Shown: piece after piece, positions 22,922 through 54,432 of the stretch
Position numbering within the stretch: the first letter of the stretch is position 1
Layout of the letters: every line of letters starts with the position of its first letter
Assembly (NCBI RefSeq): GCF_056746865.1
Contig: NZ_CM163382.1
Direction: 5' to 3' (one strand)
Length of the DNA stretch: 64,000 nucleotides
Translations under genes and position numbers: made by a program
Notes under the pieces: generated by a model
What the model was told of the DNA's origin: nothing
Seen by the model: only the letters and a program-made list of their open reading frames with translations
Databases searched by the model: none

Positions 22922-24229
22922 ATTGGATGAGCCAGTCAAGACTCAATCATTTTTTGAACAAATAGATAAATTTTGCGCAACGGCAGTGAATACAGGAAAA
23001 ATCGTTTTGAGCGATTTTATTTATCTTTGATATCGGCTTTATTAATTCATTTAATCAATATATTAGCACTGATTACAATTATACCTTTTTATTATTCTGT
23101 GTCATGATGCTTCCGTTATTAGCCTTTTATCGTCTTGTTTATATTTTTTGGGCCGGCATGATGCCGGCTTTTTTTTATGCCTTCATTAATGTGCGCCTGA
23201 TCACACCAGCCGTTTGGCGCAACAATCATTGATACCCCCTATGTTTCCGCTCAACTCATAACATATTGATATACATTTATAATTTTCATGAATATTTATA
23301 TTTAGAATTCATAATTCTGAATTATATTAAATAGATTAGAAACATTTTGAAATCTTTTAAATACATTTGTTACATGTAATCCTTAAAATAAAATGAACTT
23401 CATAGAATAGTATCCAAATGTGCTTTTTTTGGATAACGGCACTTATTGATATATTCATGAAGATTATAATCACAAGGGAATACATAATGAAAAGAAAAGT
23501 TCTGGCAATGCTGGTCCCGGCGTTATTAGTTGCTGGCGCAGCAAATGCGGCTGAAATTTACAATAAAGATGGCAATAAAGTTGATTTCTACGGCAAGATG
23601 GTTGGCGAACGCATCTGGTCAAATACTGATGATAATAACAGCGAAAACGAAGATACCTCCTATGCTCGTTTCGGTGTTAAAGGTGAAACCCAAATCACCA
23701 GCGAACTGACTGGTTTTGGTCAGTTTGAATACAACCTCGACGCCAGCAAGCCCGAAGGCTCTAATCAGGAAAAAACCCGTTTAACCTTCGCAGGTTTGAA
23801 ATATAACGAGTTAGGATCTTTCGACTATGGTCGTAACTACGGTGTTGCTTATGATGCCGCAGCTTATACCGATATGTTAGTTGAATGGGGTGGTGATTCC
23901 TGGGCTTCCGCTGACAACTTCATGAACGGTCGTACCAACGGTGTTGCAACCTACCGTAACTCTGATTTCTTTGGTCTGGTTGATGGTCTGAATTTTGCTG
24001 TGCAATATCAAGGTAAGAACAGCAATCGTGGCGTTACTAAACAAAACGGTGATGGCTATGCGTTGTCTGTAGACTACAACATCGAAGGTTTTGGTTTTGT
24101 AGGTGCATATAGCAAATCTGATCGTACTAATGAACAAGCTGGTGACGGCTACGGTGATAACGCTGAAGTGTGGTCATTAGCAGCCAAGTATGATGCAAAT
24201 AATATCTATGCAGCGGTAATGACTCCAAC

Positions 24230-33563: not shown

Positions 33564-33653
33564 TGGCGGAGAGAGGGGGATTTGAACCCCCGGTAGAGTT
33601 GCCCCTACTCCGGTTTTCGAGACCGGTCCGTTCAGCCGCTCCGGCATCTCTCC
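33564..33653 (-). tRNA. serU: tRNA-Ser (serU-type)
   Basis: Minus-strand GGAGAGATGCCGGAGCGGCTGAACGGACCGGTCTCGAAAACCGG...CTCTCCGCCA with long variable arm, 90 nt. Confidence 0.92.
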
Positions 33654-34644: not shown

Positions 34645-34720
34645 TCCTCTGTAGTTCAGTCGGTAGAACGGCGGACTGTTAATCCGTATGTCACTGGTTC
34701 GAGTCCAGTCAGAGGAGCCA
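34645..34720 (+). tRNA. asnT: tRNA-Asn (asnT)
   Basis: 76-nt TCCTCTGTAGTTCAGTCGGTAGAACGGCGGACTGTTAATCCG...GAGGAGCCA. Confidence 0.95.
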
Positions 34721-34797
34721 GATTCAAGTTTTCATGCTTATCTGTACGTTTATATTTGTTTACGATTCAGTAAGTTAGCGTGAAAATCCTTGCCGGT

Positions 34798-34869
34798 GCG
34801 TATCTGGTTTTATCTCCGCATCGGGATAATTTGGTGGTCAGATCTGGGGTCAGTTTGGTTCGATTCTGG
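34798..34869 (+). repeat. Short direct repeats (GTATCTGG / AGATCTGG / CGATTCTGG) between asnT and the integrase start; candidate integrase arm-type sites
   Basis: Three related octamers at about 34800, 34840 and 34861, plus two GGTCAG copies. Confidence 0.35.
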
Positions 34870-34882
34870 AGTGACCCCCAAA

Positions 34883-36151
34883 ATGTCTTTAAACGATTCT
34901 AAAATCCGCAAGTTAAAATCTTCTTCCCGTCCGGTAAAACTCTCCGACTCTCACGGTCTGTATCTGCTCGTCAATCCGGGCGGTTCGCGCATCTGGTATC
35001 TCAAATATCGTTTCAACGGAAAAGAATCCAGAGTCAGTCTTGGCGCATACCCGCTGGTCTCACTGGCAGAAGCCAGGCAACAGCGCGACGGTATCCGCAA
35101 GTTACTGGCGCAGAATATCAACCCGGCGCAGCAGCGCATGGCAGAGAAAGCCGCCTGCTCCCCTGAAAAGTGCTTTAAAGCGGTGGCGGTGGCGCTGGCC
35201 TGGCACAAAACCAACAAAAAATGGTCGGCTGATTATGCCGCCCGTATTCTCGCCAGTATGGAAAACCATATCTTCCCGGCGGTTGGTCATTTGCCCGTTG
35301 CCAAACTTAAAACGCAGGATTTCACTGCCCTGCTGAGGGTTATTGAGGATAAGGGCTTTCTGGAAGTCGCGTCCCGCACGCGGCAGCAACTCAGCAACAT
35401 CATGCGCTATGCCGTATAGCAGGGGCTTACCGAAAGCAATCCGGCGCAGCATCTGGATGGCGTTGTCTCCTCCCCCGTAAAGAATCACTACCCCGCGTTA
35501 CCGCTGGAGCGGTTGTCCGAACTGCTTGGCCGCATCGGTGACTATCAGCAGGGCCGGGAGTTAACCCGGCTGGCGGAGGTGCTGACACTGCACCTGTTCA
35601 TCCGTTCCAGCGAACTGCGTTTCGCCCGCTGGAGCGAGATCGATTTCAGGCACAAAATCTGGACCATCCCCGCCACCCGCGAGGCCATCGACAAAGTTCG
35701 GTTTTCGGGGCGTGGCGCAAAAATGCGTACTCCGCATATCGTACCGCTCTCCCGCCAGGCGATTGCCCTTCTGAAACAGATACAGGAGCTTTCCGGCCAT
35801 CTGGATCTGGTGTTTCCCGGCGATCATAATCCGTACAAGCCAATGAGCGAAAACACAACCAACCGGGCGCTGCGCCTGATGGGGTATGACACGAAAACTG
35901 AAATCTGCGGGCATGGACTCAGGGCAATGGCCTGTAGCGCCCTGGTGGAGTCGGACCTGTGGTCACGCGATACGGTGGAGCGGCAAATGAGCCACCAGGA
36001 GCGCAACAGCGTGCGGGCGGCATATGTGCATAAAGCAGAGCATCTGGAGGCCAGAAAGGCCATGATGCAGTGGTGGTCGGATTATCTGGATGTGTGCCGC
36101 GAGGGGTATGTTGCGCCGTACATTTATGCCCGGCAGCATAAGGCAGCCTGA
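34883..36151 (+). pseudogene. P4-type tyrosine integrase at asnT, interrupted by a single in-frame TAG at 35417..35419
   Basis: ORFs 34790..35419 and 35513..36151 share one frame and are separated only by TAG; N-terminal SLNDSKIRKLK arm-binding-type domain; C-terminal catalytic region. Confidence 0.85.
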
Positions 36152-36186
36152 ATCAGAAATAGCGTAAATCATTAAAACCGGAAAAG

Positions 36187-36217
36187 CAGATCCTGATTGA
36201 CCGGGATCTGTTTTTTT
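36187..36217 (+). terminator. Rho-independent terminator after the integrase gene
   Basis: CAGATCC...GGGATCTG hairpin followed by TTTTTTT. Confidence 0.7.
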
Positions 36218-36320
36218 GTATTGAGAGGTATTGTCGCTGTTTTTGTTATTATTAATTGGGAAGCACCGAAAATTATTCCAGTAGAATATTTGCAGTCGAT
36301 TGCCTATTAATAAATGCATT

Positions 36321-36660
36321 ATTGATAGATAATTACCTTCTGTGATTTGCCTGCAAATCACAGAAGATGAAAACCTATCAATACGGGATATTTTCACGAA
36401 AATACAAATTAATACTCCAGAATATCTGCACCAGAATATCTCCTGACCCTATACTCTGAAACCTGTAAGAACTGCATCAGATATTCAGAAACCAGACAGA
36501 TATAAGCCTGAAATTATTTGGCGTCCAATGATTTCAGGCGAAACCTATCAATGCATCTGTTTTCAACAGGCAGCCACCTTCCGTGATTCACATGTTAATC
36601 ATGGAAGGTGAAAAGCTATCAATAATCGACATTTCCACGGAATTACCACTTAATACATCC
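36321..36660. repeat. Array of three related modules, each a hairpin (palindrome) followed by a conserved box GAAA(A)(C/G)CTATCAAT-N5-a(t/c)aTTT(t/c)CA(c/a); plus one inverted box copy
   Basis: Palindromes 36337..36366 (perfect 14-bp arms), 36506..36539, 36575..36610; CTATCAAT at 36375, 36545, 36616; inverted ATTGATAG at 36321; no ORF. Confidence 0.6.
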
Positions 36661-37461
36661 CCAAAAATGCGCCATAAAATACCGGACAATCTTTCCTGAT
36701 ACAGATTATCACTGCACCAGCTATACGGAGACAAAATAATCTGCACCCGTCCTGGATAATCTGCTATCTGCGCCAGCGTCCCGCCGCTCTACCTGTTCAG
36801 TGCTGCGCCAGTACCTGGCCCTTTAGTTTTTGGCCCTTTCAGGTCAGGCGCTGTTCCCCTTATCGCCCCCTTAACCTTTATGACCCTTTCCCTTTCTGGC
36901 GCAGCCAGTTTATTTGGAAATGCTCCATGACAGTCTGCACCAGACTGTATTTTCACCACAGGATAACAATCACAAAGTGCAAAAAATAACATGAAGCACC
37001 GAAGATTCTTAATTCATATGAAGCAGGTTATTATGCCAAAAACCGTCGCAGCATTTTTATAAAATCATGAGGCATCCTGAGACCATATAATATATGTCAC
37101 AGGATACGGAAAAACACAGAGAGAATTATTCAGATATAACCCTGTGCCAGAATTAATGTGATGCCCCGGTGAATTTACATTTTAAAATTTTCCCAGCCCT
37201 GTAGTATTGGTAAAAATGATTGAAACACCTGTTATTAACAGAGAGCATTTCGTGTGATTACAGGGGTAATCACTATAATATTCCGACAAACTATATTGGT
37301 TAAGCAGGAGAATCTGATCTGTTGATATTTATTCGTCATGCTGTAACGATATTTTCACAATATAAACCCGTTCGCCCCCTGCGCCAGATCCGGAACATAG
37401 GGTACGATAAATCGCTGTCGTTACGCAGTAACGTACTATTTTGCGACATTCATGAATTCAG

Positions 37462-38346
37462 TTATTCCTCCCTCCAGCGGTATCCATACACCTGTTTCAC
37501 CCAGCGACCGCGACCGTCGCCATGACCCAGATCCGTCGCCGTCAGCGCCAGGGATTCCTTTTCGCTGAATCCCTGCGCCAGATAATGGCGGATCGCATCC
37601 TGCGCCCAGGCATAGCGCAGGGAGTGAGGGGAAAATTCCCCCTTCAGCCCCACCTTAATGACCTGTTTGTGCCAGCTCTCCAGCGCCATTTTGAGATCAG
37701 GCTTGTCGATCAGCCTGCCATTGTGTCGATCCGCGACCAGTAAGGCCTTTTCCAGAGCCTTCCTGACTGCGCCAGTATCCAGAACTGTCGTATGGCGGGG
37801 ACGCCCACCTTTGGTGCCAAACACCACTTTCAGCCGGTTTTCCCCGCGCTCAATGGCTTTCAGCCACGTTTTCAGCGACAGTGAACTCTGTACCGCTTCC
37901 TGCGAGCGTAACCCCATCAGTCGCGCGATCTCCAGCGCCGCAGCCAGCCCCGCATCCTCAGCGCGGGCTTTCTCCATAACCTGCTGGTAATGTTCCGGCG
38001 TAATGGCGCGGCGCGTACCGTTGCGTGAAGCGCCCGACACTCCCAGCGCCTTATTGGTTAGGCGTGGATGCTCCACCACCTGCCTGCGTCCAGCCTGTCT
38101 CAGCACGGCCTGCAGTGCCGCCATGTCGTTTTGCAGCGTTCGTAAACCAATATCCTGCTCCAGCCGTTCCTCAATGTAGCATTCGATATGGCGAACCCTG
38201 ATCTGCTCCACCCGCTGGATCTGGATATTCAGCGCCCGTAAATGTTCACTGAACCGTTTTGTAATATGGATACGGTCATTCACTGTTTTAAAGCTGCCGC
38301 CCGCTTTCTTCGCCAGCGCCTTCATTTCACTGCTTAATTTACTCAT
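37462..38346 (-). CDS. Tyrosine-type site-specific recombinase / integrase-family protein (294 aa), second recombinase of the asnT islet
   Basis: C-terminal HSLRYAWA...DLGHGDGRGRWVKQVYGY resembles the H-x-x-R ... catalytic-Y region of tyrosine recombinases; AGGGGA Shine-Dalgarno upstream of ATG. Confidence 0.6.
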   Translation of the reverse strand: MSKLSSEMKALAKKAGGSFKTVNDRIHITKRFSEHLRALNIQIQRVEQIRVRHIECYIEERLEQDIGLRTLQNDMAALQAVLRQAGRRQVVEHPRLTNKALGVSGASRNGTRRAITPEHYQQVMEKARAEDAGLAAALEIARLMGLRSQEAVQSSLSLKTWLKAIERGENRLKVVFGTKGGRPRHTTVLDTGAVRKALEKALLVADRHNGRLIDKPDLKMALESWHKQVIKVGLKGEFSPHSLRYAWAQDAIRHYLAQGFSEKESLALTATDLGHGDGRGRWVKQVYGYRWREE

Positions 38347-38935
38347 GAATCCCCTGCAACATAAACAAACAGTCTCCGGCGTGTGCTGTTTGGCTGCGCC
38401 AGAACGATACCTTCACGCCGGAGTGGCTGGTTGTTGAGGTTTAGGGAGTTTCAGGCTGTACGCGGTACAGACTGCCTGACGAAGCAGGGGTGTCTCCGGA
38501 GCATCGTGCCCCCCCTCGGTATCGATCTTTTTCTCCTTTACTCTGAGCTGACAGCGGCCCCAAAGGGCATGTCAGACGGCGGAAATATGGCGCAGGCCGG
38601 GACTGGCGCGGCTTGCGGCGGTATGTTGTGCAGCGTCACTTTGCCCTGTCGCTGGCGCGACCAGAGTGACACCTCGTCTGGTGCAGAGGGTAAACGTTGC
38701 GTTTCTGGTGCAGGGTGACGGTCACGCGGCAGCAAAGCCTGCTGTCTTTGCAGGCCGCAGCCCGTCAATGTAAGGCGCGGGTTGTCAGCAGAAGATAAAA
38801 CCCGGCAAAGCCAGAGTGCCAGCCCGTAAAGCCGGGTAAGCATGGCTACGAAGAAGAGAAGTGGAGAAAAAATAAATGACCGACAAATCTTATGCGGGAT
38901 GGGAATTAAACTACGCCGCTTAACTGCGGGTAACG

Positions 38936-41900
38936 GTGACCTTCACCATGCCACAGGACGTTGCGGCAAACTTTACCCTCGAAAATAACGGCATTGCCAT
39001 CACCCAAGCCAATGGGGAAGCGCATGTCACGCTGAAAGGTAAAAAAGCGGGTACGCATACGGTTACCGCAACGCTGGGTAATAACAATACCAGTGATTCG
39101 CAGCCGGTAACGTTTGTGGCGGACAAAACCTCGGCTCAGGTTGTCCTGCAGATGTCAAAAGATGAGATCACAGGTAATGGCGTCGATAACGCAACGCTAA
39201 CTGCAACGGTTAAAGATCAGTTCGACAATGAGGTGAATAATCTTCCGGTAACATTCAGCTCAGCCTCTTCAGGACTCACCCTGACCCCGGGAGTAAGTAA
39301 TACCAATGAGTCTGGCATCGCGCAGGCCACTCTCGCAGGCGTTGCCTTTGGTGAGCAGACGGTCACTGCATCACTGGCTAATAATGGTGCCAGCGACAAC
39401 AAAACTGTGCATTTTATTGGCGACACAGCAGCGGCAAAAATTATCGAGTTGACGCCTGTCCCAGACAGCATAATCGCCGGTACCCCGCAGAACAGCTCCG
39501 GCAGCGTCATCACCGCCACAGTCGTTGATAATAATGGCTTTCCGGTGAAAGGTGTGACTGTGAACTTCACCAGCAGAACAAACTCTGCCGAAATGACGAA
39601 TGGCGGCCAAGCCGTAACGAACGAACAGGGTAAGGCTACCGTCACTTATACCAATACCCGCTCCTCGATAGAATCAGGAGCGAGACCGCATACCGTTGAG
39701 GCCAGTCTGGAAAATGGTAGCTCCACGCTTAGCACATCAATTAATGTCAACGCTGATGCGTCTACGGCACATCTCACCTTGCTACAGGCACTTTTTGATA
39801 CAGTCTCCGCAGGCGACACTACCAATCTGTATATTGAGGTGAAGGATAATTACGGCAACGGTGTACCCCAGCAGGAGGTAACCCTCAGAGTATCACCAAG
39901 TGAAGGCGTGACCCCCAGTAATAACGCTATATATACTACCAACCACGACGGCAATTTTTACGCAAGCTTTACCGCTACAAAAGCCGGGGTTTATCAAGTG
40001 ACGGCAACCCTCGAAAATGGCGATTCGATGCAACAAACAGTGACCTATGTGCCGAACGTAGCGAATGCTGAAATCACGCTGGCAGCCTCGAAGGATCCGG
40101 TGATTGCCGACAATAACGATATCACGACACTAACAGCAACAGTCGCTGATACAGAGGGCAATGCGATAGCCAACACTGAGGTAACATTTACTCTGCCGGA
40201 AGATGTGAGGGCGAACTTCACGCTGAGCGATGGCGGTAAAGCGGTTACTGATGCCGATGGCAAAGCGAAAGTCACGCTGAAAGGTACAAAAGCAGGCGCT
40301 CATACTGTTACAGCATCGATGGCTGGCGGTAAGAGTGAGCAGTTGGTGGTGAACTTTATTGCGGATACACTCACTGCGCAGGTTAATCTTAACGTTACCG
40401 AGGACAATTTTATCGCTAATAACGTCGGGATGACCAGGCTGCAGGCAACAGTGACTGATGGAAACGGCAACCCGTTAGCCAATGAGGCGGTGACATTCAC
40501 GCTACCGGCAGATGTGAGCGCAAGCTTTACTCTCGGACAAGGCGGTTCCGCCATTACTGATATCAACGGCAAGGCTGAAGTTACACTGAGCGGTACAAAA
40601 TCCGGCACCTACCCCGTGACAGTTAGCGTGAACAATTATGGTGTCAGTGATACGAAACAGGTGACTTTGATTGCCGATGCTGGTACCGCAAAACTAGCCT
40701 CATTAACCTCTGTATACTCTTTCGTCGTCAGCACGACCGAGGGCGCGACCATGACTGCAAGCGTCACTGACGCTAACGGCAACCCGGTAGAAGGCATAAA
40801 AGTTAATTTCCGCGGAACCTCCGTCACGCTAAGCAGCACCAGCGTTGAAACGGATGATCGGGGTTTCGCTGAAATTCTTGTGACAAGCACCGAGGTCGGA
40901 CTGAAAACAGTTTCAGCCTCTCTGGCAGATAAACCTACTGAAGTCATCTCGCGATTACTGAATGCAAAAGCAGATATTAATTCTGCAACGATTACCAGTC
41001 TGGAGATACCTGAAGGTCAGGTCATGGTCGCACAAGACGTAGCAGTTAAAGCTCACGTCAACGACCAGTTTGGCAATCCGATTCTTAATGAATCTGTAAC
41101 ATTCAGTGCAGAGCCACCAGAGCACATGACCATCAGCCAAAATATTGTCTCTACTGATACGCATGGTATAGCCGAGGTCACTATGACGCCCGAAAGAAAC
41201 GGTTCGTATATGGTGAAAGCATCCCTGGCGAATGGATCCTCTTATGAGAAGGATCTGGTGGTAATCGATTAAAAACTGACACTCTCGGCGTCCAGCCCGC
41301 TTATCGGTGTCAATTCCCCAACAGGTGCAACTCTGACGGCAACGCTAACTTCTGCAAATGGCACTCCAGTGGAGGGTCAGGTCATCAACTTTAGCGTAAC
41401 GCCAGAAGGTGCGACGTTAAGTGGCGGAAAAGTGGGAACCAACTCTTCAGGTCAGGCTCCAGTCGTTCTGACCAGCAATAAAGTCGGTACATATACGGTG
41501 ACTGCATCGTTCCATAACGGCGTAACAATACAGACACAGACAACCGTGAAAGTCACTGGCAACTCAAGCACCGCCCATGTTGCTAGCTTTATCGCTGATC
41601 CATCGACTATCGCCGCCACCAACAGTGATTTAAGTACCTTAAAGGCAACGGTTGAGGATGGCAGTGGTAACCTGATCGAAGGTCTCACTGTGTACTTCGC
41701 CTTAAAAAGCGGCTCTGCCACATTAACGTCATTAACAGCGGTGACAGATCAAAACGGAATCGCGACAACAAGCGTGAGAGGAGCGATAACGGGGAGCGTC
41801 ACGGTAAGCGCAGTCACGACCGCTGGTGGAATGCAAACAGTAGATATAACGCTGGTGGCAGGCCCGGCAGACGCCTCAAAGTCAGTCCTTAAGAACAATC

Positions 41901-42000
41901 GGTCATCATTGAAAGGAGACTTTACCGATAGTGCTGAGCTACATCTTGTTCTGCACGATATATCAGGCAATCCGATCAAAGTTTCTGAAGGGCTGGAATT
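38936..42000 (+). repeat. Tandem coding repeats of about 300 nt (bacterial Ig-like domains) within the yeeJ remnant
   Basis: Recurrent nucleotide and protein motifs (GTCACGCTGAAAGGTA..., TVTATL/TVTASM) at roughly 100-aa spacing. Confidence 0.6.
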
Positions 42001-42775
42001 TGTGCAATCAGGTACTAACGTGCCCTATATGAAAATTAGCGCAATTGATTACAGTCAAAATATCAACGGTGATTACAAAGCCACCATTACAGGCGGCGGA
42101 GAGGGTATCGCAACGCTGATCCCTGTATTGAATGGTGTTCATCAAGCTGGTCTGAGTACCACAATACAATTCACTCGCGCAGAAGACAAAATAATGAGCG
42201 GTACAGTATCAGTCAATGGTACTGACCTACCGACAACTACATTCCCTTCGCAGGGGTTCACCGGGGCGTATTATCAGTTGAATAATGACAACTTTGCCCC
42301 AGGAAAAACGGCGGCTGATTATGAGTTTTCAAGCTCTGCCTCCTGGGTCGATGTTGATGCTACCGGTAAAGTGACATTTAAAAATGTCGGCAGCAATTGG
42401 GAAAGGATTACGGCGACGCCAAAATCAGGAGGCCCTAGCTATGTATACGAAATCCGTGTGAAGAGTTGGTGGGTGAACTCCGGCGATGCTTTCATGATAT
42501 ACAGCCTTGCTGAAAATTTTTGCAGTAGCAATGGCTACACACTTCCCCGTGCAGACCATTTAAACCATAGTCGTTCCCGAGGCATCGGGTCACTGTACAG
42601 TGAATGGGGAGATATGGGGCATTACACGACTGAAGCTGGTTTTCAATCAAATATGTATTGGTCATCTAGTCCCGCAAACTCAAGCGAACAATACGTAGTT
42701 TCCCTGGCAACAGGTGATCAAAGCGTATTTGAAAAGCTTGGGTTTGCTTATGCGACATGTGATAAAAACCTGTGA
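38936..42775 (+). pseudogene. yeeJ: 3' portion of an inverse-autotransporter adhesin gene (yeeJ-like; Big_1 Ig-like repeats and C-terminal lectin-like domain), 5' half absent, with in-frame TAA at 41270..41272
   Basis: ORFs 38936..41272 and 41369..42775 share one frame, separated by one TAA; repeated VTFTLP...FTL...G.A.VTLKG.KAG.HTVTA units; homology begins abruptly at about 38924 with no signal peptide or beta-barrel region. Confidence 0.8.
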
Positions 42776-50123: not shown

Positions 50124-50199
50124 TGGCTCCTCTGACTGGACTCGAACCAGTGACATACGGATTAACAGTCCGCCGTTCTACCGACTGAACTACAGAGGA
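50124..50199 (-). tRNA. asnW: tRNA-Asn (asnW)
   Basis: Reverse complement identical to the asnT sequence. Confidence 0.95.
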
Positions 50200-51947: not shown

Positions 51948-52023
51948 TCCTCTGTAGTTCAGTCGGTAGAACGGCGGACTGTTAATCCGTATGTCACTGG
52001 TTCGAGTCCAGTCAGAGGAGCCA
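51948..52023 (+). tRNA. asnU: tRNA-Asn (asnU)
   Basis: Identical 76-nt tRNA-Asn sequence. Confidence 0.95.
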
Positions 52024-54356: not shown

Positions 54357-54432
54357 TCCTCTGTAGTTCAGTCGGTAGAACGGCGGACTGTTAATCCGTA
54401 TGTCACTGGTTCGAGTCCAGTCAGAGGAGCCA
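54357..54432 (+). tRNA. asnV: tRNA-Asn (asnV)
   Basis: Identical 76-nt tRNA-Asn; upstream 27 nt identical to the asnT upstream sequence. Confidence 0.95.

What the first reader, a model, noticed from the sequence alone, without database searches (positions are those of the whole stretch)
38347..38923. GC-rich ORF-poor 570-bp segment with inverted repeats upstream of the orphan recombinase
This segment is conspicuously G+C-rich by eye compared with its flanks. It contains inverted repeats CCGGCGTG ... CACGCCGG (about 38382 / 38425) and two copies of GTCTCCGG, and has no convincing ORF (the 111-aa and 101-aa frames lack ribosome-binding sites and overlap each other). It is the junction between the recombinase start and the truncated yeeJ, and could hold the recombinase promoter or operator, a structured leader, or simply foreign-DNA scar.
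Basis: seen in the sequence. Interest (0 to 1): 0.35.

Follow-up and report, generated by a model that had tools for sequence, protein, structure and literature searches.

The report
Truncated EFASI leader of island recombinase
The segment is not a gene but the surviving part of a long, folded non-coding leader (it contains the known EFASI RNA motif) in front of a genomic-island recombinase gene, cut off by a deletion whose end-point recurs to the nucleotide in many other E. coli strains.

Summary
Window 38347-38838 is DNA of a tRNA-Asn (asnT) island. Positions 38839-38932 are the native 5' end of yeeJ (ATG at 38842, 30 codons). An internal, out-of-frame yeeJ deletion follows.

The island part holds a full-length EFASI RNA motif (Rfam RF02957) at 38401-38530 on the minus strand. 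It scores 95.7 bits against a gathering score of 51.2 and ends 55 nt upstream of the Integrase_1-type recombinase gene.

It is a conserved, covarying helix joining the EFASI 3' tail to downstream sequence, followed by a U-rich tract, a Shine-Dalgarno sequence and the ATG. The two ORFs are not coding.

In intact relatives (other E. coli, seven other genera and plasmids) this is the 3' half of a roughly 900-nt leader: STAXI or STAXI-like domain, linker, EFASI, recombinase. The window has lost the 5' half and its likely promoter.

The unexpected part is the deletion end-point, ...GCCGGGTA|. It is identical in at least five different junctions in other strains and lies at the edge of a 10-mer (CTGCRCCAGA) that is clustered around the recombinase gene. 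It may be the recombinase's crossover site, but this is inferred, not shown.

The motif itself is already known; its function is unknown.

The parts
37462..38346 (-). Integrase_1-type tyrosine recombinase gene (294 aa), the gene the leader precedes
   Evidence: Pfam PF12835 (E 6.7e-60) and PF12834 (E 1.5e-39). R147, K179, H241, R244, H275 and Y287 are invariant in 9 homologues, plasmid copies included.
38350..38355 (-). Shine-Dalgarno-like AGGGGA, 3 nt upstream of the recombinase AUG (38346-38344)
   Evidence: Read from the sequence. AGGGG/AAGGGG is kept in most of the 16 homologues.
38357..38373 (-). U-rich tract (ACUGUUUGUUUAUGUU) after helix H; includes the 3' arm of the H extension (38366-38372)
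   Evidence: (I24).
38374..38383 (-).
   Evidence: I7. Helix 11 is 100% paired, with one pair UA:8 / CG:8. Plasmid copies keep the helix with changed bases.
38391..38404 (+). TGGCTGCGCCAGAA: a copy of the clustered 10-mer CTGCRCCAGA, and one arm of an exact 14-nt inverted repeat with 36894-36907
   Evidence: (I8).
38401..38530 (-). EFASI RNA motif (Rfam RF02957), full length
   Evidence: 95.7 bits against gathering score 51.2, E 1e-19 to 2e-20, model positions 1-133 of 133.
38414..38434 (-). 5' arm of helix H (CUCCGGCGUG, 38423-38414) and its extension (ACAACCAG, 38434-38427), inside the 'unpaired' conserved 3' tail of EFASI
38552..38576 (-). Conserved hairpin CUGACA...UGUCAG just 5' of EFASI
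   Evidence: Helices 3 and 4 (96-97% paired); alignments.
38632..38673 (-). Conserved hairpin (GGYGUCACUUU... / ...AAAGUGACGCC) with a variable apical part
   Evidence: Helix 2: 11 pairs, 2 with changes on both sides (GC/UA 11:3; UA/GC 10:6).
38677..38713 (-). Two direct copies of CTGCACCAGA (38677-38686 and 38704-38713)
   Evidence: D6; 8 exact copies in the window, all within 36426-38713, 0.22 expected.
38716..38767 (-). Conserved long hairpin (helix 1)
   Evidence: helix 1: 16 pairs, 98.4% paired, one covarying pair (UA:9 / GC:5).
38800..38838 (.). Terminal stem-loop ACCCGGC-N24-GCCGGGT, then A. This is the last island base and the recurrent deletion end-point ...GCCGGGTA|
   Evidence: A terminator-like call on the minus strand at 38815-38801.
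38839..38932 (+). Native yeeJ 5' end (3 nt upstream, ATG at 38842, 30 codons)
   Evidence: 98% identity to K-12 yeeJ over window 38835-38932. Strain Ch1 carries the same island|yeeJ junction followed by full-length yeeJ.
38928..38936 (+). Second junction: internal, out-of-frame yeeJ deletion (K-12 locus positions 609 to about 3750)
   Evidence: The left end in the undeleted gene is GCGGGTA|TCTG, an exact 10-mer copy of the intact island site.
36400..37400 (+). AT-rich region downstream of the recombinase gene. It holds exact (36426, 36935, 37379 on +; 36895 on -) and many degenerate copies of the 10-mer, and the left copy of a 25-nt inverted repeat (about 36698-36724)
   Evidence: (L003 I5).

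Best explanation
SHOWN.
- 38347-38838 is island DNA, not yeeJ upstream DNA.
- It contains a complete EFASI motif on the recombinase-sense strand, 55 nt before the recombinase start codon.
- It also contains further helices that are conserved and covary across Escherichia, Serratia, Klebsiella, Cedecea, Pseudocitrobacter, Salmonella and Erwinia.
H pairs the conserved 'single-stranded' 3' tail of EFASI with sequence downstream of the Rfam motif boundary.
- The segment is a deletion remnant. Intact relatives continue for about 450 nt more, through a STAXI-like domain.

INFERRED.
1. The whole roughly 900-nt stretch is a promoter-driven, structured 5' leader of the recombinase mRNA.
2. Helix H controls whether transcription or translation reaches the recombinase gene. 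H crosses EFASI stem P1, so the two form either a pseudoknot or alternative folds. H is followed by a U-rich tract, a Shine-Dalgarno sequence and the AUG.
3. In this window the leader has lost its promoter, so the recombinase is probably silent.
4. The deletion end-point, GCCGGGTA|TCTGGTGCAG in the intact island, is a sequence-specific crossover site. The most economical candidate enzyme is the adjacent Integrase_1 recombinase, acting like a resolvase: it recombines its site with weak secondary sites (..G-N-T-A|) lying in the same orientation to the right, deleting what lies between.

Confidence by step: identity as a truncated EFASI-containing island leader about 0.9; cis-regulatory role of the leader and helix H about 0.5; break-point as the recombinase's crossover site about 0.3-0.4. 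The single figure given is for the package as a whole.
For: Identity as island DNA.
- The 492 bp are present at 80% coverage or more in 307 of 5426 complete E. coli genomes.
- K-12-type genomes match only 38835-38932.

EFASI.
- 95.7 bits against a gathering score of 51.2, full length.
- All 14 homologous island copies checked and two plasmid loci have EFASI at the same place: same strand, 55-110 nt before the gene.

Structure.
- On a 16-sequence alignment, 97.7% of cells are paired, against 33-41% when partners are slid.
- 8 pairs show changes on both sides, against 1-4 for slid partners.
- Helix H is 100% paired, with UA:8 / CG:8 at one pair.
- LF82 and the plasmid copies keep H with other bases: CCCCGGCGC/GCGCCGGGG and CCCCGAUGCAC/GUGUCGUCGGGG.
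- Invariant or frequent G-U pairs (for example UG 16 of 16, GU 15 of 16) place the fold on the recombinase-sense strand.

Leader.
- In plasmids, a TTGACG-17-TACTAT promoter-like site ends 14 nt before STAXI. About 440 nt then separate STAXI from EFASI, and about 110 nt separate EFASI from the gene.
- Klebsiella indica locus L019 has TATAAT immediately 5' of a sub-threshold STAXI match (24 bits, E 0.12).

Transcription. An EFASI locus was detected by RT-PCR in vesicle RNA of an STEC strain (PMC12370729).

Deletion hot spot.
- Sequence to the right of ...GCCGGGTA differs between strains: yeeJ -7; yeeJ positions 2108 and 3294 (positions in K-12 locus L008; the ATG is at 518); mid-Rhs core (three island lineages at more than one tRNA-Asn locus: asnT, asnV and a third copy); end of Rhs core. 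The intact form continues TCTGGTGCAG.
- With a 500-bp probe spanning the site, 240 of 381 genomes are intact. Every sampled truncated copy of this lineage ends at probe position 250/251.
- The break abuts a copy of CTGCRCCAGA. That 10-mer occurs 8 times in the window, all within 2.3 kb around the gene, against 0.22 expected.
- The later deletion inside yeeJ starts at an exact copy of CGGGTA|TCTG.
- Partner sites all carry TA|, and 5 of 6 carry G at -4.
- The recombinase has an invariant catalytic set R, K, H, R, H, Y.
- Only deletions are seen. Inverted junctions between two nearby inverted-repeat pairs are found in 0 of 394 and 0 of 357 genomes.
Against: - No transcript ends are known for this locus.
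- The consensus promoter scanner finds nothing in the island leaders. The island promoter is therefore inferred from a -10 box only.
- Helix H has a 30-nt loop, and the terminator scanner does not call it. Plasmid copies lack a U-tract right after H. A terminator role is therefore uncertain, and H may simply be part of a larger EFASI fold.
- Covariation rests on few clades, about 3-4 independent lineages.
- For the hot spot, no second inverted binding arm typical of a tyrosine-recombinase core was found next to the break.
- Similarity between partner sites is only 2-7 nt and lies on one side of the junction. That also fits microhomology-mediated joining or an HUH-type nuclease.
- Plasmid homologues lack the 10-mer arrays.
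- Junction-bearing genomes are partly clonal, and the mid-Rhs junction could be one old event spread by homologous recombination.
- A metagenome scan added no new junction type (22 intact, 2 mid-Rhs).
Confidence: 0.55

Rival explanations
1. EFASI is an independent, trans-acting small RNA, which is Rfam's working description. Helix H plus the U-rich tract is simply its terminator, and the recombinase is expressed separately. The rest of the segment is spacer.
For: [quoted passage not shown]
- H followed by UUUGUUUAUGUU looks like an end of transcription in the Escherichia copies.
- EFASI was detected as an RNA species in vesicles.
Against: - No promoter-like site lies directly 5' of EFASI in the window, the islands or the plasmid.
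- Only about 25 nt separate the U-tract from the recombinase AUG, leaving no room for a separate recombinase promoter.
- Position and strand relative to the gene are fixed in all 18 loci examined (the window, 15 related island copies and 2 plasmid loci).
- Plasmid copies have no U-tract after H.
Confidence: 0.2
2. The conserved folds act as single-stranded DNA rather than RNA. They could be single-strand promoters, priming signals or folded recombination sites used when the element enters a cell by conjugation. The recombinase would act on such folded DNA.
For: - Plasmid homologues lie next to leading-region-type genes (ArdC-like metallopeptidase, DNA methylase, UmuC). In the Pantoea plasmid, STAXI flanks the recombinase on both sides.
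- Weinberg et al. note that their method cannot tell ssDNA from RNA motifs (PMC5737381).
- The recurrent break lies 12-20 nt 3' of the STAXI-like domain and right after a stem-loop.
Against: - Ordinary double-strand promoter-like sites sit immediately 5' of all three plasmid STAXI copies (one confirmed by the scanner).
- The chromosomal islands carry no visible transfer genes in the stretches read.
- G-T pairs would be less favourable in DNA.
Confidence: 0.15
3. The recurrent deletion end-point needs no dedicated enzyme. The terminal stem-loop or neighbouring repeats make a fragile point through replication stalling or breakage. Repair by short-homology joining (GGTA/TA) gives the junctions. 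Apparent recurrence is inflated by shared ancestry.
For: - All junctions show 2-7 nt of homology, on one side only.
- A 7-bp G+C-rich stem ends one base before the break.
- No inverted core arms were found.
- Many junction-bearing genomes are near-identical.
Against: - Five different right-hand partners share one left end to the nucleotide. In the rows listed for the probe search, no copy of this lineage ends elsewhere in the roughly 900-bp region.
- The later yeeJ deletion starts at an exact CGGGTA|TCTG copy that has no such hairpin.
- The discontinuous G(-4)..TA pattern is not plain microhomology.
Confidence: 0.3
4. In this particular window the segment is a functionless scar: a promoterless fragment of a decayed island (its P4-type integrase is a pseudogene), kept only because nothing has removed it.
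For: - The P4-type int is split (34790-35419 and 35513-36151).
- The leader's 5' half is deleted.
- No promoter-like site remains.
- Two helices carry mismatches in the window/L003 lineage (columns 147-172).
Against: - The recombinase ORF is intact, and its product is the same protein (WP_061353961.1) annotated in strains EC17CM13, 1919D3 and Ch1.
- EFASI still scores far above threshold.
- This reading concerns present activity only. It does not say what the element is.
Confidence: 0.5

Closest known systems
EFASI RNA motif (Rfam RF02957; Weinberg et al. 2017, NAR 45:10811)
   Same: Full-length match far above the gathering score. Enterobacteriaceae. Directly upstream of, and on the same strand as, an integrase-family gene. 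In related plasmids, about 440 nt downstream of STAXI.
   Different: - STAXI is missing here (deleted). In the island relative tested (L019) it reaches only 24 bits.
- The comparative data add a helix (H) that reaches beyond the Rfam motif boundary and crosses stem P1.
- They also place EFASI inside a roughly 900-nt conserved leader rather than as a free-standing small RNA.
STAXI RNA motif (Rfam RF01728)
   Same: Upstream partner of EFASI in the plasmid homologues (70-102 bits), each preceded by a sigma-70-like promoter. A related, degenerate domain occupies the same place in the islands.
   Different: Absent from the window. The break that created the window's junction lies 12-20 nt 3' of the STAXI-like domain.
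Riboswitch-like or attenuator 5' leaders (structured aptamer plus an alternative helix before the start codon)
   Same: A conserved multi-helix fold, then a helix that competes or interlocks with the closing stem, then a U-rich tract, Shine-Dalgarno sequence and AUG.
   Different: No ligand or partner is known. H and P1 share no nucleotides, so a pseudoknot is as likely as a switch. Terminator criteria are not met.
Integron platform (intI, attI and recombination at GTT/GWT secondary sites)
   Same: A tyrosine-recombinase gene with, a few hundred bp upstream, a fixed crossover point flanked by direct repeats of a short motif. Variable cargo lies beyond it. The secondary partners share only 3-4 nt.
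   Different: No attC-like cassette sites and no cassette array. The recombinase belongs to PF12835, not the IntI family. The events seen are deletions, not cassette insertions.
Resolvase-type tyrosine recombinases next to their site (Cre/loxP, ResD/rfsF, XerCD/dif-cer)
   Same: Small recombinase without an arm-binding domain. The candidate site is adjacent to the gene. Deletion-only outcome, with no inversions seen. The motif contains GGTGCA, reminiscent of the GGTGCG of XerC arms (from memory).
   Different: No palindromic two-arm core was found, and no experimental activity is known for this family.
Right-border deletions of asnT islands next to yeeJ (the high-pathogenicity island; frequent yeeJ truncation noted by Martinez-Gil et al. 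2017, PMC5595812)
   Same: Same chromosomal site, with island-to-yeeJ deletions that truncate or silence yeeJ.
   Different: This is a different island (no yersiniabactin genes). Here the island-side end-point is the same nucleotide in every case.

Membership tests
EFASI RNA motif (RF02957) | Covariance-model score at or above the curated gathering score over the whole model | tested here: met
   95.7 bits against 51.2, model positions 1-133 of 133, window 38401-38530 minus strand.
EFASI RNA motif (RF02957) | Lies upstream of an integrase-family gene in Enterobacteriaceae | tested here: met
   The motif ends 55 nt before the AUG of a PF12835/PF12834 protein on the same strand. The arrangement is the same in 14 island copies checked and 2 plasmid loci.
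EFASI RNA motif (RF02957) | Several hundred bp downstream of a STAXI motif (frequent, not obligatory) | tested here: not met
   No STAXI in window 36000-39200 even at E up to 1; that part is deleted. Island relative L019 scores only 24.2 bits against 40.5. Plasmid relatives score 70-102 bits.
EFASI RNA motif (RF02957) | Acts as an RNA (transcribed, folded) | not testable with these tools
   Indirect only: G-U pairs fix the strand, and an EFASI locus was detected by RT-PCR in another strain (PMC12370729).
Tyrosine recombinase (neighbouring gene 37462-38346) | Catalytic residues R, K, H-x-x-R, H/W and the nucleophile Y | tested here: met
   R147, K179, H241, R244, H275 and Y287 are invariant in 9 homologues of 48-83% identity. 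Pfam PF00589 is only a weak match (E 3e-4) but PF12835 is strong.
Tyrosine recombinase (neighbouring gene 37462-38346) | Demonstrated strand exchange at a defined site | not testable with these tools
   No characterised member was found. All names given by sources for the listed homologues (120 of 1486 with E <= 1e-10) are generic. No sequence relative in the PDB.
Site-specific recombination site (for ...GCCGGGTA|TCTGGTGCAG) | Independent rearrangements share the same crossover nucleotide | tested here: met
   Five different right-hand partners at one left end. A further deletion starts at an exact 10-mer copy of the site.
Site-specific recombination site (for ...GCCGGGTA|TCTGGTGCAG) | Core of two inverted recombinase-binding arms around a 6-8 bp overlap | tested here: not met
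   Only one motif copy abuts the break. The nearest inverted CCAGA/TCTGG pair is 23 nt apart.
Invertible DNA segment (recombinase gene between inverted repeats) | Both orientations are found among genomes | tested here: not met
   Probes for the inverted junctions gave 0 of 394 genomes (14-nt inverted-repeat pair) and 0 of 357 genomes (25-nt inverted-repeat pair).
Intrinsic terminator (helix H plus U-tract) | G+C-rich stem with a short loop, immediately followed by a run of U | tested here: inconclusive
   The stem is G+C-rich and conserved, but the loop is 30 nt and contains the P1 3' strand. The scanner does not call it. There is no U-run after H in the plasmid copies.
Protein-coding gene (111-aa and 101-aa ORFs) | Codon-position bias of substitutions, in-frame indels, homologues | tested here: not met
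   Substitutions 370/329/271 and 320/341/350 by codon position. Indels that are multiples of 3: 0-1, against 98-117 that are not. No Pfam or PHROG hit for these or for the ORFs annotated at the same place in relatives.
Integron | IntI-type integrase, attI and an array of attC-bounded cassettes | tested here: not met
   The recombinase is PF12835, not IntI. The cargo beyond the site consists of Rhs/T6SS, toxin-antitoxin, defence or sugar-uptake genes, with no repeated attC-like sites.

The most novel reading that the evidence does not exclude
The bond GGGTA|TCTG is the natural crossover site of the uncharacterised PF12835 'Integrase_1' recombinases. It lies at the 3' edge of the STAXI-like domain and at the edge of a CTGCRCCAGA repeat.

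On this reading these enzymes are resolvase-like and remove adjacent DNA by recombining with minimal G-N-T-A secondary sites. STAXI, the linker and EFASI form the long structured leader (or accessory nucleic-acid scaffold) that controls the enzyme.

This would give the two orphan motifs STAXI (2010) and EFASI (2017) a concrete biological role. It would also explain why asnT-island borders and yeeJ are so often deleted.
Probability: 0.3. Interest if true: 0.7.

Novelty: new member of a known kind. Interest (0 to 1): 0.4.

Why it matters
As submitted, the finding resolves to something ordinary: one more copy of a catalogued RNA motif, in a decayed island, next to a broken adhesin gene.

Three side results would matter if confirmed.

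1. EFASI appears to be the last domain of a roughly 900-nt conserved leader of a recombinase mRNA, and it carries an extra helix that reaches to the ribosome-binding region. This turns a motif of unknown function into a testable cis-regulator.

2. A recombinase family with more than a thousand members and no known activity gets a candidate target site.

3. A nucleotide-precise, recurrent deletion end-point explains part of the known instability of the asnT-yeeJ region. It could be used as a natural marker of recombinase activity.

Tried and rejected
- **Protein-coding reading of the two ORFs.** Rejected: no homologues, flat codon-position profile, out-of-frame indels.
- **Promoter in the segment.** None found.
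- **STAXI in the window.** None at E up to 1.
- **Unusual folding energy.** Not significant on either strand, z about -1.2. Single-sequence thermodynamics is uninformative here.
- **Invertible segment around the recombinase gene.** Two inverted-repeat pairs were tested with chimeric junction probes. No inverted form in 394 and 357 genomes.
- **Integron-like cassette platform.** No attC-like repeats, and the recombinase is not an IntI integrase.
- **The 10-mer as a Chi or Xer site.** Only partial resemblance, judged from memory; not pursued.
- **10-mer arrays in plasmid homologues.** Absent, so the arrays are a feature of the islands, not of the recombinase family as a whole.
- **Metagenome scan for more junction types.** 24 island contigs, no new type.
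- **Solved-structure relatives of the recombinase.** None by sequence. Structure prediction was not run.
- **Literature.** EFASI appears in only one paper in the searchable library, which quotes the Rfam description. The supplementary text of the discovery paper is not held. A search for 'STAXI' returned only psychology papers.
- **E. coli records H36 and H37.** They looked like other break-points but turned out to be intact, divergent island lineages next to T6SS genes.
Full report
**1. What is at the coordinates**

The window is E. coli. A tRNA-Asn gene (asnT, 34645-34717) is followed by these features:
- a P4-type integrase pseudogene (34790-35419 and 35513-36151; Arm-DNA-bind_3, Phage_int_M and Phage_integrase domains);
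- an AT-rich 1.3 kb stretch (39.8% G+C);
- a 294-aa gene on the minus strand (37462-38346) with Pfam Integrase_1 (PF12835, E 6.7e-60) and Phage_int_SAM_2 (PF12834, E 1.5e-39);
- the segment in question;
- yeeJ sequence.

First, the G+C content of 38347-38838 is 59.6%. That is higher than the window (48.2%) and yeeJ (50.1%), but about the same as the recombinase gene to its left (57.2%).

Second, the segment is composite. Positions 38835/38839-38932 are 98% identical to the start of yeeJ in K-12, from 7 nt (homology) or 3 nt (junction) before the ATG at 38842 through codon 30. The sequence then jumps to K-12 locus position about 3750 of the same gene, out of frame. So yeeJ is not 5'-truncated. 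It lost its promoter region to one deletion and about 3.1 kb of its interior to a second.

The inverted repeat (10 nt perfect, 38374-38383 / 38414-38423) and the two GTCTCCGG copies are there.

**2. The ORFs are not genes**

- Neither the 111-aa nor the 101-aa ORF has a Pfam match.
- ORFs annotated at the same place in relatives have no PHROG match.
- Across 16 homologous sequences, substitutions fall evenly on the three codon positions (370/329/271 and 320/341/350).
- Pairwise indels are almost never multiples of three (0-1 against 98-117).

**3. A known RNA motif**

A scan against Rfam finds a full-length EFASI match (RF02957) at 38401-38530 on the minus strand. It scores 95.7 bits against a gathering score of 51.2, with E about 1e-19.

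EFASI stands for 'Enterobacteriaceae, Frequently Around STAXI and Integrases'. It was reported by Weinberg et al. 2017. According to the Rfam text quoted in PMC12370729, it lies several hundred bp downstream of STAXI and upstream of integrase genes, and its function is unknown. That paper also detected an EFASI locus by RT-PCR in vesicle RNA of an STEC strain.

In the window the motif ends 55 nt before the recombinase AUG, on the same strand.

**4. The segment belongs to an island family**

- The 492 bp of island DNA occur at 80% coverage or more in 307 of 5426 complete E. coli genomes. Other genomes match only the 98 bp of yeeJ.
- With the gene included, 624 genomes hold a relative, down to about 70% identity.
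- Islands sit at more than one tRNA-Asn gene (asnT, asnV and at least one other copy).
- A scan of one genome per species found the same module in E. whittamii, E. albertii, Serratia, Klebsiella indica, Cedecea, Pseudocitrobacter, Salmonella arizonae, Erwinia and an unclassified Enterobacteriaceae isolate.

Everywhere the order is: isrK-like and C4-like RNAs; small genes (ash, a 154-aa protein, a Ner-like HTH protein); about 940 nt without genes; EFASI (93-112 bits); 55-110 nt; the recombinase gene; then, convergently, the P4-type int and the tRNA.

Beyond the module the cargo varies: Rhs/T6SS genes, toxin-antitoxin pairs, an ABC-three-component defence system, or sugar-uptake genes.

On Citrobacter and Pantoea plasmids, 48-49% identical recombinases carry the canonical arrangement. 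A promoter-like site (TTGACG-17-TACTAT, ending 14 nt before the motif) is followed by STAXI (70-102 bits), about 440 nt, EFASI (88-91 bits), about 110 nt, and the gene. In Pantoea a second STAXI follows the gene, ahead of ArdC-like and methylase genes.

The only island locus searched at a relaxed threshold that gave a STAXI match was L019: sub-threshold (24 bits, E 0.12), in the same relative position, immediately after a TATAAT box.

**5. Structure beyond the Rfam motif**

I aligned 16 distinct sequences, running from about 46 nt upstream of a conserved GGCCTGCA box to the AUG (alignment A1).

- RNAalifold and an explicit pair count show conserved helices over almost the whole retained segment.
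- 97.7% of cells are paired, against 33-41% when partners are slid by 1-3 columns.
- 8 pairs have changes on both sides, against 1-4 for slid partners.
- No shuffle out of 500 reaches the observed values for four of the five measures; the count of further pair types did not exceed the shuffles.
- Frequent G-U pairs (UG 16 of 16, GU 15 of 16, and others) place the fold on the recombinase-sense strand.

Its 3' arm (38383-38374) lies outside the Rfam model.

- H is 100% paired in the alignment, with UA:8 / CG:8 at one position.
- LF82 has CCCCGGCGC/GCGCCGGGG, and the plasmid copies have CCCCGAUGCAC/GUGUCGUCGGGG.
- An extension (38434-38427 with 38372-38366) is also kept.
- H crosses EFASI stem P1, whose 3' strand lies in the loop of H. 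The two therefore form either a pseudoknot or alternative folds.
- In Escherichia, H is followed by ACUGUUUGUUUAUGUU, then AGGGGA and the AUG.
- The simple terminator scanner does not call H, and plasmids lack the U-run. A terminator role is possible but unproven.

I therefore read EFASI as the last domain of a long structured leader, and H as the element that couples it to recombinase expression. This is inference. Thermodynamics of the single sequence gives no signal.

**6. The window's copy is a deletion remnant**

The intact E. coli form (ATCC 8739, 1919D3) continues past 38838 with TCTGGTGCAGTGATGG... This continuation is homologous to the other lineages, so it is the ancestral state.

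The window has lost the STAXI-like domain, the -10-like box and everything up to 3 nt before the yeeJ ATG. No promoter-like site remains. The recombinase ORF is intact but probably unexpressed.

Strain Ch1 has the same island|yeeJ junction followed by a full-length yeeJ. The internal yeeJ deletion is therefore a later event in the window's lineage.

**7. The unexpected part: one end-point, many partners**

The sequence to the right of ...CCCGTAAAGCCGGGTA differs between strains:

| Continuation after GGGTA | What it is | Strains |
|---|---|---|
| AGCATGG | yeeJ -7 | window, EC17CM13, F11, Ch1, CH4796 |
| AGCCAGAAAG | yeeJ position 2108 of the K-12 locus | 1EC187, ET120 and about 9 others listed |
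| ATCAACAGG | yeeJ position 3294 | LR-45 |
| ACCG[C/A]ATCACC | middle of an Rhs core | A10 at asnT, HKUOPY1 at asnV, A29; two metagenome contigs |
| TATCACCCAGG | end of an Rhs core | MDK9L1 |

- With a 500-bp probe centred on the site, 240 of 381 genomes are intact. Every sampled truncated copy of this lineage stops at probe position 250/251. No right-half-only match was listed.
- In the undeleted partners, the base pairs just left of the future junction are AGGTA, CGCTA, GGCTA, GGATA, AGGTA and GAATA (the last from Ch1). TA is invariant, and G at -4 occurs in 5 of 6.
- The later deletion inside yeeJ starts at GCGGGTA|TCTG. This is an exact 10-mer copy of the intact island site, CGGGTA|TCTG. 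An exact 10-mer is expected about 0.007 times in 7 kb on one strand.
- On the recombinase-sense strand the break reads CTGCACCAGA|TACCCGG, so it falls at the 3' edge of a 10-mer.
- That 10-mer, CTGCRCCAGA, occurs 8 times in the 64-kb window, all within 36426-38713, against 0.22 expected.
- In intact ATCC 8739 there are four copies upstream of the gene: one in the putative promoter spacer, one at the break and two retained in the window. An inverted set lies downstream in the AT-rich region.
- The orientation switch near EFASI is conserved across genera.
- A 25-nt imperfect inverted repeat pairs the break-site copy with one at window about 36698-36724.

**8. Mechanism for the hot spot**

The recombinase keeps all catalytic residues of tyrosine recombinases (R147, K179, H241, R244, H275, Y287). 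It has no characterised relative.

The simplest reading is that its crossover site lies at this bond. Rare recombination with weak secondary sites in direct orientation has then deleted the cargo, in the way integron integrases use GTT secondary sites or resolvases act only on directly repeated sites.

Evidence consistent with this reading:
- Only deletions are seen.
- Probes for inverted junctions between two inverted-repeat pairs found nothing in 394 and 357 genomes.

Evidence against it:
- No two-arm palindromic core was found.
- Similarity between partners lies on one side of the junction only. That fits an HUH-type nuclease or plain short-homology joining at a fragile hairpin equally well.
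- The 10-mer arrays are missing from plasmid homologues.
- The number of truly independent events is uncertain because genomes are related. The metagenome scan (22 intact, 2 mid-Rhs) added no new type.

I put this reading at about 0.3-0.4 and the enzyme-free reading at about 0.3.

**9. Comparison with what is known**

The RNA motif is catalogued, and membership is met on score, host range and gene context. The usual STAXI neighbour is absent here because it was deleted. Instability of the asnT-yeeJ region and frequent yeeJ truncation have been noted before (PMC5595812), but not a fixed island-side end-point.

The following seem not to be described in what I could search:
- the extra helix H;
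- the placement of EFASI in a promoter-to-gene leader shared by islands and plasmids;
- the 10-mer arrays;
- the recurrent break.

The supplementary text of the discovery paper was not available, so part of this may already be noted there.

**10. Verdict**

As a finding, this is a new copy of a known motif inside a decayed island, and it is probably inactive in this strain. Interest is moderate, and it comes from the leads in sections 5 and 7 rather than from the segment itself.

Noticed in passing
window 38839-42775: yeeJ keeps its ATG (38842) and 30 codons. It then has an internal, out-of-frame deletion of about 3.1 kb. The remainder reads as two ORFs (38936-41272 and 41369-42775), so there is at least one further disruption near 41272-41369. 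RefSeq annotates the identical locus as a pseudogene with an internal stop.
   Followed up: partly
window 34790-36151: The P4-type integrase next to asnT is split into two ORFs (209 and 212 aa). It is annotated as a pseudogene with an internal stop in nearly all relatives, but is intact in CAVP776, A29 and an O145 strain.
   Followed up: partly
window 36150-37460: The AT-rich (39.8% G+C) 1.3 kb between the two integrase genes has no convincing ORF. It holds large palindromes (42-nt arms at 36309-36350 / 36353-36394; 18-nt arms at 36575-36610), repeated CTATCAATA units and many copies of CTGCRCCAG. This layout resembles iterons or an origin, and its role is unknown.
   Followed up: partly
window 36894-36907 and 38391-38404: An exact 14-nt inverted repeat (TTCTGGCGCAGCCA / TGGCTGCGCCAGAA) brackets the recombinase gene. 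The pair is kept in all Escherichia lineages checked but not in other genera. No inverted form was seen in 394 genomes.
   Followed up: yes
L003 7421-7605; L019 2128-2332 (relatives; the region is deleted in the window): Intact islands carry C4 antisense RNA, its a1/b1 target and isrK-like RNAs upstream of ash, a 154-aa protein and a Ner-like HTH protein. This is a phage P1/P4-style RNA immunity region, transcribed towards the STAXI-like/EFASI leader.
   Followed up: no
L066 5151-7090 (Pantoea piersonii plasmid): Two STAXI motifs in direct orientation flank the EFASI-plus-recombinase unit. Each is preceded by a sigma-70-like promoter. The second leads into ArdC-like, DUF1281 and DNA-methylase genes typical of plasmid leading regions.
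   Followed up: partly
window 38801-38815 (minus strand); L019 3461-3475 and 3545-3560: The linker between the STAXI-like domain and EFASI contains repeated small hairpins, each followed by CCUUUU/UUUUAU (terminator-like calls). They may form a series of attenuators.
   Followed up: no
window 14598-14684, 23086-23175, 33567-33653, 50127-50199, 51948-52020, 54357-54429: Ordinary chromosomal RNA genes: DsrA, RseX, tRNA-Ser and three further tRNA genes with the same score as asnT (the positions of asnW, asnU and asnV in related genomes). None of these three carries an island copy of the module in this window: every copy of the module's clustered 10-mer lies within 36426-38713.
   Followed up: no
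L002 9144-12494 (strain A10): In strain A10, Mu-like prophage genes (Mor, gp16, Gam) lie a few kb to the right of the island|Rhs junction. They are probably unrelated to the junction.
   Followed up: no
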